From: a virus | IMG/VR virus record: IMGVR_UViG_3300045988_126226 | Location: 67,035 to 131,034 of that record | Length of the DNA: 64,000 nt | Direction: 5' to 3' (one strand) | Shown here: positions 29,120 through 30,534 of the stretch, in pieces | Layout: each line of letters starts with the position of its first letter | Numbering within the stretch: position 1 is the stretch's first letter | Notes under the pieces: model-generated | Told to the model about the DNA's origin: nothing | The model's input: the letters and a program-made list of their open reading frames with translations, nothing else | The model's database searches: none | Program-made: the position numbers and the translations under genes

Positions 29120-29281
29120 GTTATTACCTCCGGAGAAATATAATAATGAAAGGTTTTATCTTTTCCCTTCATTATTATATGACTTTTATTTTGTGTAAAT
29201 ATATTATAATTACTGACACTTTTTGGATAAAAATTTCACTTACTCAAAATTAAATAAATTTGACACTTTATAATTTTTTAT

Positions 29282-29310
29282 TTTACAATATTTAAAAATT
29301 TTTGTATAAT
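29282..29310 (+). promoter_or_regulatory. Promoter TTTACA-17-TATAAT with extended -10 (TGn)
   Basis: Lies in the 240-nt intergenic region upstream of the LytTR regulator gene. Confidence 0.45.
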
Positions 29311-29362
29311 TATAATATAGAGAAAATATAGAGATAGAAAAATTTTTTCTAAAATAAACAAA

Positions 29363-30079
29363 ATGAAGGTGATTAAAATTTTTATTGTAGGTGTTTGCGA
29401 CAATAGCGATTAGCAAAATGACTCATTGGAAGAAATAATAAATTAGTATTTTAAAGATTTTAATTTACCAGGATATGTATATAAATTTACTGATCCTAAA
29501 AAATTAATTAACTCTAATATTGATTATGATGCAATTTTTTTAGGGATTACATTTAAAAAAATGGATGGTATTGAAATAGCTCATCTTTTAAGGATAAATG
29601 GGTATATTGGAAAAATAATTTTTGTTTCCTCTCAAATAAATTATGGAGTAGCTTCTTATGAAGTAAAGGCATTTAATTTTGTCAAAAAGCCTGTTAATAA
29701 GGAAAAAATTTTTTCTATTTTACATGAAGTTAGAGAAGAAAAAAGACGTGAATATAAATATTTAGATACTCCTAATGGAGAAGTAAAAATTGATTTAAAT
29801 AAAGTATTATATGCTGATATTCAAAAACGAAATTTATGTTGTCATTTAGAGAATGAAATTCTAAATAGTAAAACTCTAAAAACTTCTTTTGAAAATTATA
29901 TAGGAACTTTAGTTTATCATCCAGATTTTGTCTTTATCCCGCCAAGTTTAATTATTAATTTAAATCAAATTAAAATAATGAATAAAGACAATTTAACTTT
30001 TAAAAATGGTGAAGTTTTATACTTTCCTAAAAAAGGCTATGAGGAAATTAATCGACGATGGAAAAATCCATTTAGATAA
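29363..30079 (+). CDS. Atypical LytTR-family response regulator (REC + LytTR; phosphoacceptor Asp apparently absent)
   Basis: ATG 29363 with 2 TAGs. Receiver-like N-terminus IFIVGVCDNS...IDYDAIFLGITFKKMDGIE, where the usual D..D pair and the DI.MP Asp appear replaced. C-terminal LytTR DNA-binding domain. It lies antisense inside the late block. Confidence 0.5.
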
Positions 30080-30087
30080 AAAAAAAT

Positions 30088-30126
30088 AAGGGAGACATTC
30101 AGTTAAGAATGTCTCCCTTATTTTTA
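30088..30126. terminator. Bidirectional terminator
   Basis: aagggagacattc / gaatgtctccctt stem flanked by A and T tracts. Confidence 0.6.
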
Positions 30127-30534
30127 TTGCTTTAAATCATCACTTGGAGTACGATAATTATTTACTGTAGATTCAATCTTCTCTTGTAAATATTTATTCA
30201 AATCACCAAAAGCATTATTCAAATACTCTTTAGCATCATCACTTAAAATAAGCAATACTGCTTGATAAGTTCTCTAAAATGCTTCTTTTTGAGCAGCTTC
30301 ATCAAACTTACCTTGTTCTTTAAGAGAATTTACATAAGTTTGATTGGTGGCAATAACACAGTTAGTAATTGTGTCAGTAGCCATTTGCACATATTTATTT
30401 AAAATATCATTATTAGTTTTCTTTTGTAATTCTGCACTTTTTGCTTTAATCCAAATAACTATAAAAGTAGTTAAAGCACCAAGCATAGGAATCAAACATA
30501 CTTGAAATAATTGATTAATTAAATTTTGATCCAT
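30124..30534 (-). CDS. Small membrane protein (holin-like candidate); 1 TAG
   Basis: RBS aaaaaggagataatat. TM segment LIPMLGALTTFIVIWI. ORF 30274..30534 continues through TAG to TAA 30124. Confidence 0.4.

What the first reader, a model, noticed from the sequence alone, without database searches (positions are those of the whole stretch)
29123..30127. Atypical LytTR response regulator encoded antisense inside the late-gene block, with its own promoter and bidirectional terminator
REC-like domain plus LytTR domain, but the acidic pocket and phospho-acceptor Asp appear substituted (VCDNS; IFLGITF instead of DI.MP). LytTR regulators normally belong to agr or com-type peptide quorum-sensing circuits. 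A phosphorylation-independent copy in a phage suggests a phage-encoded switch for late-gene or host-gene expression. No cognate kinase or peptide genes are visible nearby.
Basis: partly seen in the sequence, partly recalled or inferred. Interest (0 to 1): 0.55.

Follow-up and report, generated by a model that had tools for sequence, protein, structure and literature searches.

The report
Asp-less LytTR regulator in a recoded phage
A large gut phage that reads the TAG stop codon as glutamine encodes a conserved AgrA/ComE-like DNA-binding regulator that has lost its phosphorylation site. It probably switches on the neighbouring late operon, and it can only be made in full once TAG is being decoded.

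Summary
The window is a 30% GC phage that reads TAG as Gln. The gene (29363/29378-30079, +) is open only if two in-frame TAGs are read through. Its product has a receiver plus LytTR fold: AlphaFold pLDDT 90, best PDB match full-length ComE, C-terminal half matching the AgrA LytTR domain. The phospho-acceptor is Gly61 and the second acidic residue is Asn14. The LytTR signature FhRhHRS is FVFIPPS.

The gene is not an accident. It is a core gene (phrog_8810) of a family of 120-200 kb gut phages. It always lies between a six-gene leftward operon and the holin gene, and it is under purifying selection (dN/dS 0.12-0.26). No kinase lies nearby.

The new result is a cis element. An A-tract followed by GTGT(C/G)AG lies exactly 33 bp upstream of a TATAAT, with no conserved -35, before the divergent operon in six lineages. 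A second and a third copy lie towards the regulator's own near-consensus sigma-70 promoter. The real start codon is probably ATT (ATA in a relative).

Best reading: a phosphorylation-independent activator of the adjacent late operon whose synthesis depends on amber suppression. Binding is inferred, not shown. It is a new variant of a known kind and moderately interesting.

The parts
29363..30079 (+). Regulator gene: receiver plus LytTR, 238 codons from ATG 29363 or 233 from the more likely ATT 29378. The stop codon is TAA at 30077-30079.
   Evidence: ORF map with TAG read as sense. Pfam. phrog_8810, E 8e-25, full length. AlphaFold and Foldseek. dN/dS 0.12-0.26.
29366..29380 (+). Invariant Shine-Dalgarno-like AAGGTGA (29366-72), followed 5 nt later by ATT (29378-80), the probable non-AUG start codon.
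   Evidence: Relatives with an ATG start have Met exactly 7 residues before the pocket Asp and 6-7 nt after the GGAGG. The window and L001 have ATT, and L040 has ATA, at that codon. L040 has an in-frame TGA just upstream. ATG 29363 is TTG in L019 and TGG in L001.
29411..29413 (+). In-frame TAG (codon 17 counted from ATG 29363), at the start of helix alpha-1, just after the acidic loop.
   Evidence: Present in all 85-99% relatives and in the 69% relative L001. L040/L041 have a TAG 3 residues further on. The retention is not statistically exceptional (background 0.18-0.48).
29444..29446 (+). Second in-frame TAG (codon 28).
   Evidence: This codon is CAG (Gln) in most close relatives, which agrees with TAG = Gln.
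29399..29404 (+). Acidic-pocket codons GAC AAT, giving Asp13 and Asn14 where the canonical pair is Asp-Asp.
   Evidence: Alignment columns: 114 of about 137 homologs have Asp at position 13 and 111 have Asp at position 14. AgrA D8 maps to N14.
29543..29545 (+). GGG = Gly61, at the phospho-acceptor position (tip of strand beta-3).
   Evidence: Aligns with Asp in MrkE, in AgrA (D59) and in 122 of about 137 homologs. In the model, strand beta-3 spans residues 57-61.
29927..29947 (+). Degenerate LytTR signature FVFIPPS (residues 189-195), where the canonical motif is FhRhHRS.
   Evidence: AgrA R198/H200/N201/S202 map to F191/P193/P194/S195. The motif definition is from PMC4227749. The variant is shared by the closest clade.
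29213..29224 (-). Box 1. It reads AAAAAGTGTCAG on the minus strand and CTGACACTTTTT on the plus strand. It is centred about -52 from the inferred leftward transcription start.
   Evidence: It lies exactly 33 bp upstream of TATAAT in six lineages, across a spacer that is not conserved. This is the only perfect instance in the window. It is invariant in the alignment.
29234..29243 (.). Box 2 (TTTCACTTAC). Its CAC is 20 bp from that of box 1 (21 bp in L001).
   Evidence: The pattern CACTT-N14-17-CACTT has 2 hits in the window against 0.35 expected.
29260..29270 (.). Box 3 (TTGACACTTTA). It lies 11 bp upstream of the regulator's own -35 and is centred about -52 from the inferred start of the regulator's own transcript.
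   Evidence: TGACACTTT occurs only twice in 64 kb, both times here. The CACTTT core is invariant. The 41-bp distance to the regulator's own -10 is the same in L001.
29174..29179 (-). -10 element TATAAT of the leftward (six-gene operon) promoter. There is no conserved -35.
   Evidence: Conserved in six lineages at a fixed distance from box 1.
29282..29310 (+). The regulator's own promoter, TTTACA-17-TATAAT (11/12 match). A second 11/12 match lies at 29260-29289.
   Evidence: Both hexamers are invariant down to the 69% relative. Only nine sites this good exist in the window.
29139..29179 (.). Inverted repeat with 15-bp arms, overlapping the leftward -10 element and transcription start.
   Evidence: A hairpin is kept with different sequences in L001, L040 and L046.
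30082..30125 (.). Bidirectional intrinsic terminator shared by the regulator and the convergent holin gene.
   Evidence: 19-bp stem with 6 G-C pairs and T-runs on both strands.
30124..30534 (-). Holin gene, convergent with the regulator.
   Evidence: phrog_13712 holin, E 7e-38. This position is conserved in relatives.
26188..29119 (-). Six-gene operon transcribed divergently from the regulator, and its presumed target. Functions are unknown. The last gene resembles an HExxH metalloprotease, and the first has 8 TAGs in 148 codons.
   Evidence: All six genes are syntenic in every lineage. The operon ends at the bidirectional terminator 26158-26204.

Best explanation
The gene encodes a phage transcription factor of the LytTR response-regulator family whose receiver has become a pseudo-receiver: no phospho-acceptor Asp and an incomplete acidic pocket. 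It therefore acts without a histidine kinase.

Proposed sequence of events:
1. Host RNA polymerase transcribes the gene from a near-consensus sigma-70-type promoter.
2. Translation starts at a weak AUU codon and meets an amber codon after about a dozen codons. Full-length protein therefore appears only once the infected cell decodes TAG as Gln.
3. The protein binds, probably as a dimer, to ACACTT-type boxes in the 243-bp divergent intergenic region.
4. From boxes centred near -52 and -72 it activates the -35-less promoter of the adjacent six-gene operon, whose first gene is very rich in TAG. A third box at about -52 of its own promoter gives feedback on its own transcription.

Shown: TAG = Gln, the fold, the loss of Asp, conservation and synteny, purifying selection, and the fixed box-to-promoter geometry.

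Inferred: that this protein is what binds the boxes, the sign of regulation, the use of AUU as start codon, and the timing by suppression.
For: Recoding:
- The longest ORFs rise from 680 to 2,648 aa if TAG is read through.
- Where window TAG codons differ in relatives, 37 of 48 changes are to CAA or CAG.
- TAG makes up 0.11 of Gln-plus-TAG codons in the early block and 0.36 in the late block.

Fold and family:
- Pfam REC 34.1 bits and LytTR 20.4 bits.
- phrog_8810, E 8e-25.
- pLDDT 90.
- ComE 4cbv E 5e-14, and AgrA LytTR domain TM 0.78.
- The family profile hits ComE, AgrA and 3d6w.

Loss of the phosphorylation site: Gly61, Asn14.

The gene is functional:
- dN/dS is 0.12-0.26 in both domains.
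- Twelve residues of the LytTR domain are invariant in the closest clade.
- Synteny operon/regulator/holin is identical in lineages down to 30% identity.

No kinase was found. By contrast, the bacterial homolog P0006 sits directly behind an AgrC-type kinase.

Cis elements:
- The three boxes and both promoters are invariant while the spacers diverge.
- The box-to-TATAAT spacing is exactly 33 bp in six lineages, without a conserved -35.
- The architecture is unique in the window.
- The ACA-N-TT core and the 20-21 bp period resemble AgrA sites. AgrA likewise binds direct repeats upstream of divergent promoters, with the proximal repeat near -60 (PMC4227749).
- In L043, L044 and L046 a TCACAAA box lies inside the regulator's own promoter spacer.

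Start codon.
Against: - No binding data exist. The boxes could belong to another phage or host factor.
- The LytTR signature FhRhHRS is FVFIPPS. Three residues that contact or approach DNA in AgrA (R198, H200, N201) are replaced by Phe, Pro and Pro, so DNA recognition must differ from AgrA, if it occurs at all.
- Box 2 is clear only in the window and L001 lineages.
- The regulator's own promoter already matches the consensus, so box 3 need not activate it.
- The close relative L041 has Asp at the acceptor, so phosphorylation may still matter in some lineages.
- Retention of the early TAG is within the background rate (0.18-0.48).
- No suppressor tRNA was found in the window or about 10 kb either side of it in relatives, so the timing step is conjecture.
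- The architecture occurs once only, so this is not a general late-gene activator within these 64 kb.
Confidence: 0.5

Rival explanations
1. It is still a signal-controlled response regulator. A host (or distant phage) AgrC/LytS-type kinase or another partner controls it, by phosphorylation of another residue or by binding to the receiver. This would let the phage read host quorum or membrane state to time lysis. The gene lies next to the holin.
For: The receiver is under purifying selection (dN/dS 0.12-0.26) and keeps Asp13, Ser89 and Lys109. L041 has Asp at the acceptor. More distant phage relatives (L043, L046) keep both the Asp-Asp pair and the acceptor Asp. The bacterial homolog P0006 has Gly at the acceptor yet sits behind a kinase. 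About 130 kb of the phage genome was not examined.
Against: Gly cannot accept a phosphoryl group, and Asn14 removes a residue that normally helps bind the metal. L040 and L041 differ by Gly versus Asp in near-identical proteins, which suggests the residue is dispensable. Many members of the clade have degenerate pockets. No kinase was found in the window or in the syntenic regions.
Confidence: 0.17
2. It is a take-over or decoy factor aimed at the host. It would occupy host LytTR-regulated promoters (agr-like, bacteriocin, lrgAB-type) or form dead heterodimers with host LytTR regulators. The nearby boxes would belong to a different protein.
For: It has an early-type host promoter. Its homologs are Clostridia LytR/AlgR-family regulators. 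It evolves faster than its neighbours (31-48% against 55-77% identity), as expected for a protein that tracks host targets.
Against: The strict synteny with the box-bearing promoter across all lineages is better explained by a local target. The in-frame TAG and weak start codon would delay an early take-over protein. The host is unknown, so no host site could be tested.
Confidence: 0.15
3. It is a dead gene or an annotation artefact, that is, a decaying captured host regulator interrupted by stop codons.
For: Under the standard code the ORF is broken. Only a 172-aa piece starting at Met67 is open. Databases hold truncated versions (P0003, P0007).
Against: TAG is a sense codon across the whole phage. 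dN/dS is 0.12-0.26. Synteny is conserved down to 30% identity. The full-length fold is predicted with confidence.
Confidence: 0.03

Closest known systems
ComE of Streptococcus pneumoniae (PDB 4cbv), the competence response regulator
   Same: Same two-domain architecture, receiver plus LytTR. It is the best structural match over the full length (E 5e-14) and the best profile hit (E 1e-25).
   Different: ComE has the phospho-acceptor Asp58, is driven by the kinase ComD and a peptide pheromone, and keeps the canonical motif (SPHKSFLVN). The phage protein has Gly61, FVFIPPS, no kinase and no peptide genes, and shares only 16-17% identity.
AgrA of Staphylococcus aureus (PDB 3bs1, 4g4k)
   Same: The LytTR fold matches at TM 0.78 and rmsd 2.5 A. 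AgrA binds pairs of direct repeats in a divergent intergenic region, with the proximal repeat near -60 (PMC4227749). The ACA-N-TT core of the boxes resembles AgrA's ACAGTTAAG (consensus recalled from memory).
   Different: AgrA needs phosphorylation at Asp59 by AgrC. Of the AgrA DNA-contact positions, H169 and R233 map to basic residues (R156, K224), but R198, H200 and N201 map to F191, P193 and P194.
CdtR of Clostridioides difficile, an orphan LytTR response regulator
   Same: A LytTR regulator encoded without an adjacent kinase that activates a neighbouring locus (PMC6699598, PMC4944984).
   Different: CdtR depends on Asp61: D61A is dead and D61E is partly active. The phage protein has Gly at that position naturally.
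LytTR regulatory systems (BrsR/HdrR of Streptococcus mutans)
   Same: LytTR transcription factors that work without phosphorylation (PMC6193735, listed; details from my own knowledge).
   Different: Those proteins lack a receiver domain and are held in check by a membrane inhibitor. The phage protein keeps a complete, conserved receiver fold.
Other phage-borne two-component or agr parts
   Same: Uncultured phage proteins labelled 'Response regulator [Siphoviridae sp. ctiV651]' (full length, E 5e-16) and 'LytTr DNA-binding domain'. The family phrog_8810. Clostridioides phages LIBA2945 and LIBA6276 carry a 'two-component response regulator'. Phage phiCDHM1 carries agrB, agrD and agrC (PMC3901668).
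   Different: None of these has been characterised. The LIBA match covers the receiver only (31% identity over 45% of the query). phiCDHM1 carries the kinase and the peptide genes but no regulator, which is the reverse of the situation here.
TAG-recoded gut phages (genetic code 15)
   Same: Low GC content, TAG = Gln, and TAG concentrated in structural and lysis genes. The proposal that recoding times late expression comes from bioRxiv 10.1101/2021.08.26.457843 and PMC10607447.
   Different: Those papers do not mention a response regulator or transcription factor ('response regulator' and 'transcription factor' have 0 occurrences). A TAG-containing regulator beside a fixed-geometry promoter is not described there.

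Membership tests
Response-regulator receiver domain (PF00072) | (beta-alpha)5 fold recognised by the family model | tested here: met
   Pfam 34.1 bits against a cut-off of 30.2. The AlphaFold model has five strand-helix units at pLDDT above 90. Receiver structures superpose at rmsd 1.7-2.5 A.
Response-regulator receiver domain (PF00072) | Phospho-acceptor Asp at the end of strand beta-3 | tested here: not met
   Gly61 (codon GGG, 29543-45). Asp occupies this column in 122 of about 137 homologs, in MrkE and in AgrA (D59).
Response-regulator receiver domain (PF00072) | Acidic pair after strand beta-1 that binds the metal | tested here: not met
   Asp13 is kept but the second residue is Asn14. 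Asp occupies that column in 111 of about 137 homologs.
Response-regulator receiver domain (PF00072) | Conserved Thr/Ser (end of beta-4) and Lys (end of beta-5) | tested here: met
   Ser89 (column: Thr 90, Ser 35) and Lys109-Pro110 (column: Lys 129).
Response-regulator receiver domain (PF00072) | Cognate histidine kinase | tested here: inconclusive
   None among the neighbours or the ORFs of 190 aa or more on the + strand. The minus-strand ORFs that were examined are structural. About 130 kb of the roughly 190-kb genome lies outside the window.
LytTR DNA-binding domain (PF04397) | Family model at or above its curated score | tested here: not met
   20.4 bits against a cut-off of 22.6, E 6e-4. 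8 of the 13 closest clade members match at E up to 0.01.
LytTR DNA-binding domain (PF04397) | All-beta LytTR fold | tested here: met
   Residues 131-220 form ten strands. AgrA LytTR domains 4g4k, 3bs1 and 4xqj match at TM 0.77-0.79, and 3d6w at 0.71.
LytTR DNA-binding domain (PF04397) | Signature motif FhRhHRS (PMC4227749) | tested here: not met
   The motif is FVFIPPS. Arg is replaced by Phe, His by Pro and Arg/Asn by Pro; only Phe189, Ser195 and the later Asn199 are kept. The closest clade shares the variant F-x-F-x-x-P-S-L-(L/I)-I-N-L.
LytTR DNA-binding domain (PF04397) | Binds imperfect direct repeats of about 9 bp spaced about 21 bp centre to centre, upstream of the target promoter | not testable with these tools
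   Candidate boxes exist: the period is 20-21 bp and the proximal box lies 33 bp from the -10 element in six lineages. Binding itself needs an experiment.
agr/com-type peptide quorum-sensing circuit | Adjacent AgrC/ComD-type kinase, peptide precursor and processing or export genes | tested here: not met
   No HATPase_c_5, AgrB or peptidase/ABC exporter was found next to the gene, in the window or in the syntenic loci. The bacterial homolog P0006 does have the kinase.
phrog_8810 (phage protein family of unknown function) | Full-length match to the family profile | tested here: met
   E 8.2e-25, residues 8-234 against profile positions 2-241 of 245.
Genetic code 15 (TAG = Gln) phage | ORFs lengthen when TAG is read through, and TAG exchanges with CAA/CAG among relatives | tested here: met
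   Longest ORFs rise from 680 to 2,648 aa. 37 of 48 changes are to CAA or CAG. In more distant relatives Gln is the commonest replacement in L019, L001, L040 and L043; in L046 it is Glu.
Genetic code 15 (TAG = Gln) phage | Phage-encoded suppressor tRNA (anticodon CTA) | tested here: inconclusive
   No tRNA in the window, no Rfam match, and none within about 10 kb beyond either edge in relatives. The rest of the genome was not seen. Some recoded phages lack such tRNAs (PMC10607447).

The most novel reading that the evidence does not exclude
The regulator acts as a checkpoint for the genetic-code switch. Its mRNA is made early from a host-type promoter, but an AUU/AUA start codon and an amber codon within the first dozen or so codons keep the protein absent until amber suppression is established. 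Only then does it switch on an operon whose first gene has the highest TAG density in the window (8 in 148 codons). Transcription of TAG-rich genes would thereby be coupled to the cell's ability to translate them. This would be the first transcription factor shown to read out a phage-induced change of genetic code.
Probability: 0.2. Interest if true: 0.8.

Novelty: new variant of a known kind. Interest (0 to 1): 0.55.

Why it matters
How stop-codon-recoded phages order their infection programme is an open question. Published work proposes that recoding itself delays late and lysis proteins, but it names no transcription factor.

This locus offers a small, well-defined module to test:
- one regulator;
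- one 243-bp control region with three boxes and two promoters;
- one target operon next to the holin.

The module is conserved across a whole family of abundant 120-200 kb human-gut phages.

It is also a natural experiment in receiver evolution. The fold is kept under purifying selection while the phosphorylation chemistry has been lost, and Gly and Asp alternate at the acceptor between near-identical relatives.

On the practical side, the gene is truncated or missed by standard-code gene callers. It also probably starts at a non-AUG codon.

Tried and rejected
1. Box pairs upstream of other late operons. CACTT-N14-17-CACTT gave only the local site plus one hit inside a coding region. A relaxed scan for box, 32-34 bp, then -10 gave 8 hits against 9.9 in shuffles, and only the local one was perfect. 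Upstream regions of six other minus-strand genes show no such box. I therefore dropped the idea of a general late-gene activator.

2. Selection on the early TAG. Background retention of window TAG codons is 0.48 against L019 and 0.18 against L001. The TAG in L040 is 3 residues away rather than at the same codon. I report this as suggestive only.

3. Suppressor tRNA. ARAGORN on the window, Rfam, and walks of about 10 kb beyond both edges in seven relatives each found none.

4. Kinase. Pfam on neighbours and on + strand ORFs, and the precomputed Pfam annotation of the orthologous Logan contig, found none.

5. Annotated phage relatives. The phage collection holds only unannotated faecal contigs at 27% identity or less, and a receiver-only match in two C. 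difficile phages. DNA search of the region gave only short fragments.

6. Bacterial counterparts. The single-protein scan found only the same phage, binned as a 'Mollicutes' MAG.

7. Context of P0008. The contig was too short to be informative.

8. The extended -10 (TGn) that I first read in the regulator's own promoter is not one; the TG is off by one base.

9. The apparent 1.6-kb gene-free gap at 42882-44480 came from my rule of accepting ATG starts only. It holds minus-strand ORFs.

10. Internal start at Met67 as the real product. I rejected this because there is no ribosome-binding site, the Met is part of the conserved MDG motif, and the strand beta-1 region is conserved and predicted with confidence.
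Full report
**1. What is at the coordinates**

The span 29123-30127 covers one plus-strand gene with its control region and terminator, set between minus-strand genes. Under the standard code only a 172-codon ORF from Met67 (29561-30079) is open.

That is not decay. The whole window reads TAG as a sense codon.
- If TAG is read through, the longest ORFs grow from 680 to 2,648 aa and the total length of ORFs of at least 100 codons rises from 43 to 69 kb. Reading through TGA has no such effect.
- Where window TAG codons differ in 88-95% identical relatives, 37 of 48 changes are to CAA or CAG. 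In more distant relatives Gln is the commonest replacement in four of the five lineages compared; in L046 it is Glu.
- TAG is 0.11 of all Gln-plus-TAG codons in the plus-strand replication block (1-26153) and 0.36 in the minus-strand block (26188-64000).

The plus block encodes DnaB, RecJ, helicases, DNA polymerase III alpha, NrdD/NrdG and dUTPase. The minus block encodes a holin, a tail protein, a tape-measure-like giant ORF and other giant ORFs. 'Late-gene block' is therefore a fair description.

Related viral contigs reach 197 kb. This is a large, low-GC gut phage using code 15, of the kind surveyed in bioRxiv 10.1101/2021.08.26.457843 and PMC10607447.

**2. The protein**

With TAG read as Gln the product has 238 residues.
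- Pfam gives Response_reg at 34.1 bits (cut-off 30.2) and LytTR at 20.4 bits (cut-off 22.6, E 6e-4).
- PHROGs gives a full-length match to phrog_8810, of unknown function, E 8e-25.
- A search of 1.8 billion representative proteins finds 7,424 homologs at E up to 0.001. Most of the best 150 listed are about 240 aa long and match over nearly their full length.
- A profile search returns proteins that almost all carry PF00072 plus PF04397. The named ones are Clostridia LytR/AlgR-family regulators.
- AlphaFold of the 98% ortholog P0001 is confident (pLDDT 90). It shows a five-unit receiver followed by an all-beta domain.
- Foldseek places full-length ComE first (4cbv, E 5e-14). The C-terminal half matches the AgrA LytTR domain at TM 0.78 and rmsd 2.5 A.

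The refutation test 'no LytTR domain by HMM' is therefore narrowly failed by Pfam's own threshold, but it is overridden by the fold and by profile evidence.

**3. The pocket**

- In an alignment of about 137 homologs, Asp occupies the acceptor column in 122. Here the residue is Gly61.
- The second acidic residue is Asp in 111. Here it is Asn14.
- Asp13, Ser89 and Lys109 are kept.
- Pairwise alignments to MrkE and AgrA (AgrA D59 maps to G61) agree.
- In the model, Gly61 lies at the tip of strand beta-3.

There is a third deviation. The most conserved LytTR motif, FhRhHRS (PMC4227749), is FVFIPPS. AgrA R198, H200 and N201 map to Phe191, Pro193 and Pro194. AgrA H169 and R233 map to Arg156 and Lys224.

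The closest homologs share this variant (F-x-F-x-x-P-S-L-(L/I)-I-N-L … Y-F-P-K) and have 12 invariant residues in the output domain. Their receiver pockets are often degenerate in different ways.

**4. A real, conserved phage gene**

Eighteen viral contigs carry it at 85-99% identity. Further lineages carry it at 69% (L001), 45% (L040/L041) and 30-38% (L043, L044, L046).

In every lineage the order is the same: a six-gene operon reading leftward, then the regulator reading rightward, then the holin reading leftward. The regulator diverges faster (31-48% identity) than its neighbours (55-77%).

dN/dS is 0.12-0.23 overall and 0.12-0.26 in the receiver half. The Asp-less receiver is therefore maintained.

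L040 and L041 differ at only nine residues. One of them is the acceptor: GGT (Gly) against GAT (Asp). This argues that the residue has become dispensable. It also warns that phosphorylation may not be lost everywhere.

The only hit among 185,579 species-representative genomes is the same phage on a 164-kb contig binned as a 'Mollicutes' MAG. A distant bacterial homolog that also has Gly at the acceptor (P0006) sits directly behind an AgrC-type kinase. The phage gene has no such neighbour.

**5. The control region**

The region is 29120-29362.

- **Own promoter.** Two of the nine best sigma-70-type matches in the whole window (11/12) lie here in tandem. The one at 29282-29310 (TTTACA-17-TATAAT) is invariant down to the 69% relative. 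Most other such sites precede early genes, so this is an early-type host promoter.
- **Three boxes.** Upstream lie CTGACACTTTTT (29213-24), TTTCACTTAC (29234-43) and TTGACACTTTA (29260-70). They are invariant while the sequence between them drifts. TGACACTTT occurs only at these two places in 64 kb.
- **Leftward promoter.** Read on the minus strand, box 1 is an A-tract plus GTGT(C/G)AG. It lies exactly 33 bp upstream of a TATAAT in six lineages, across spacers that share no sequence, and no -35 is conserved. This is the signature of an activator-dependent promoter. With the -10 element at 29179-29174 the start should be near 29167, which places box 1 at about -52 and box 2 at about -72.
- **Box 3.** It lies at about -52 from the regulator's own inferred start (about 29317). 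The 41-bp distance from its CAC to the -10 element is the same in L001.
- **Distant lineages.** In L043, L044 and L046 a related TCACAAA box lies inside the spacer of the regulator's own promoter, which suggests autorepression there.
- **Comparison with AgrA.** The ACA-N-TT core, the 20-21 bp period and the divergent arrangement parallel AgrA at the agr P2/P3 region (PMC4227749).
- **Uniqueness.** The architecture is unique in the window. Relaxed matches are at chance level: 8 observed against 9.9 ± 3.3 in shuffles.

**6. Translation signals**

ATG 29363 has no ribosome-binding site and is not conserved. It is TTG in L019 and TGG in L001.

An invariant AAGGTGA (29366-72) is followed 5 nt later by ATT (29378). 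In lineages with a normal ATG start (L043, L044, L046), Met lies exactly seven residues before the pocket Asp and 6-7 nt after the GGAGG. The window and L001 have ATT at that very codon, and L040/L041 have ATA. L040/L041 also have an in-frame TGA just before the ribosome-binding site and no ATG, GTG or TTG before the first TAG.

Non-AUG initiation is therefore the simplest reading. The strand beta-1 region that follows is conserved and is part of the confident model, so it must be translated.

The same three lineages carry a TAG within the first 10-15 codons. The TAG at codon 17 is present in all relatives from 99% down to 69%. Given background retention of 0.18-0.48, this is not significant on its own.

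**7. Terminator and neighbours**

The 19-bp-stem hairpin at 30082-30125 has T-runs on both strands. It serves both the regulator and the convergent holin gene (phrog_13712, E 7e-38).

The leftward operon ends at another bidirectional terminator, 26158-26204. Its six products have no known function: phrog_21718, 16490, 20016 and 1233, the last resembling an HExxH protease. The first gene has 8 TAGs in 148 codons.

**8. Mechanism**

The best-supported model is a kinase-independent LytTR-type activator that works on the adjacent promoter from boxes at about -52 and -72 and feeds back on its own promoter. Its synthesis is throttled by a weak start codon and gated by amber suppression.

- Shown: the code, the fold, the loss of Asp, conservation, selection, and the promoter geometry.
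- Inferred: who binds the boxes, the sign of regulation, the start codon, and the timing.

Confidence is about 0.5. The rivals are a still signal-controlled regulator (0.17), a decoy directed at the host (0.15) and a dead gene (0.03).

**9. Comparison and novelty**

It works like AgrA or ComE at the DNA end, and like pseudo-receiver ('atypical') regulators at the input end. It is a member of the receiver and LytTR folds, but it fails the defining chemistry of a phospho-accepting receiver and the LytTR signature motif. It is not part of an agr/com circuit.

CdtR, the best-known orphan LytTR regulator, still needs Asp61 (PMC6699598).

Receiver plus LytTR proteins are auto-annotated in other uncultured phages and form a PHROG family. 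The existence of such genes is therefore catalogued, but I found no study of them.

The following appear to be new, so I rate this a new variant of a known kind, interest 0.55:
- the fixed-geometry promoter;
- the Gly/Asp alternation at the acceptor;
- the non-AUG start;
- the dependence on recoding.

**10. Limits**

- No binding or expression data exist.
- The host is unknown.
- No suppressor tRNA was located within the roughly 84 kb examined.
- About two thirds of the genome was not seen.
- The structure is that of the 98% ortholog rather than the window protein itself, because the predictor accepts only exact database sequences.

Noticed in passing
window 1-64000: The whole window uses TAG as a Gln codon (genetic code 15). 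TAG density is 4 per 1,000 codons in the plus-strand replication block and 16 per 1,000 in the minus-strand structural and lysis block. TAA (39) and TGA (13) are the stop codons in use.
   Followed up: yes
window 28673-29119 (-): The first gene of the operon divergent from the regulator has 8 TAGs in 148 codons, the highest density of any convincing gene in the window. Its function is unknown (phrog_21718).
   Followed up: partly
window 29139-29179: An inverted repeat with 15-bp arms (TATAATAATGAAAGG … CCCTTCATTATTATA) overlaps the leftward -10 element and transcription start. A hairpin is kept with different sequences in L001 (GGAAT/ATTCC), L040 (GAAGAA/TTCTTC) and L046 (AAAGGAA/TTCCTTT). It could be a 5' stem-loop on the operon mRNA or a second operator.
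   Followed up: partly
L040 and L041, 6001-6693: Two near-identical orthologs (nine amino-acid differences) differ at the phospho-acceptor: GGT (Gly) in L040 and GAT (Asp) in L041.
   Followed up: partly
window 27060-27482 (-): This 140-aa protein (phrog_20016) ends …NASLIIERVA. From memory it resembles the C-terminal C1q-like domain of the Bacillus exosporium protein BclA. Pfam gave no hit, so this is an untested lead.
   Followed up: no
window 56053-63999 (-) and 34283-42031 (-): Two giant late ORFs. One is tape-measure-like, longer than 2,648 aa, has 71 TAGs and runs off the window. The other is 2,582 aa with 28 TAGs; its ortholog has a weak LRR_5 hit.
   Followed up: no
L047 (CAMELE010000001.1, 164 kb): A contig deposited as part of an 'uncultured Mollicutes' MAG is this phage (regulator 95% identical). 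Either it was mis-binned or it is a hint to the host.
   Followed up: no
L049 6637-8729: The bacterial LytTR regulator P0006 also has Gly at the acceptor position (YDAIFLGINMP), yet it directly follows an AgrC-type kinase (HATPase_c_5). An Asp-less receiver can therefore coexist with a partner kinase.
   Followed up: no
window 1-64000, and L051-L066 and L090-L113: There is no tRNA gene and no Rfam family anywhere in the window, and no tRNA within about 10 kb beyond either edge in relatives. The agent that decodes TAG was not located.
   Followed up: partly
window 11126-11965 (+): A Phage_lysozyme2-domain protein with a hydrophobic N-terminus lies in the early plus-strand block, 18 kb away from the holin and without any TAG codon.
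   Followed up: no
window 23478-23506 (+): The only perfect 12/12 sigma-70 consensus (TTGACA-17-TATAAT) in the window ends 7 nt before the start codon of gene 23513-24073. That is too close to serve that gene in the usual way.
   Followed up: no
window 26158-26204: A second bidirectional terminator (20-bp stem) lies at the point where the plus-strand and minus-strand blocks converge.
   Followed up: no
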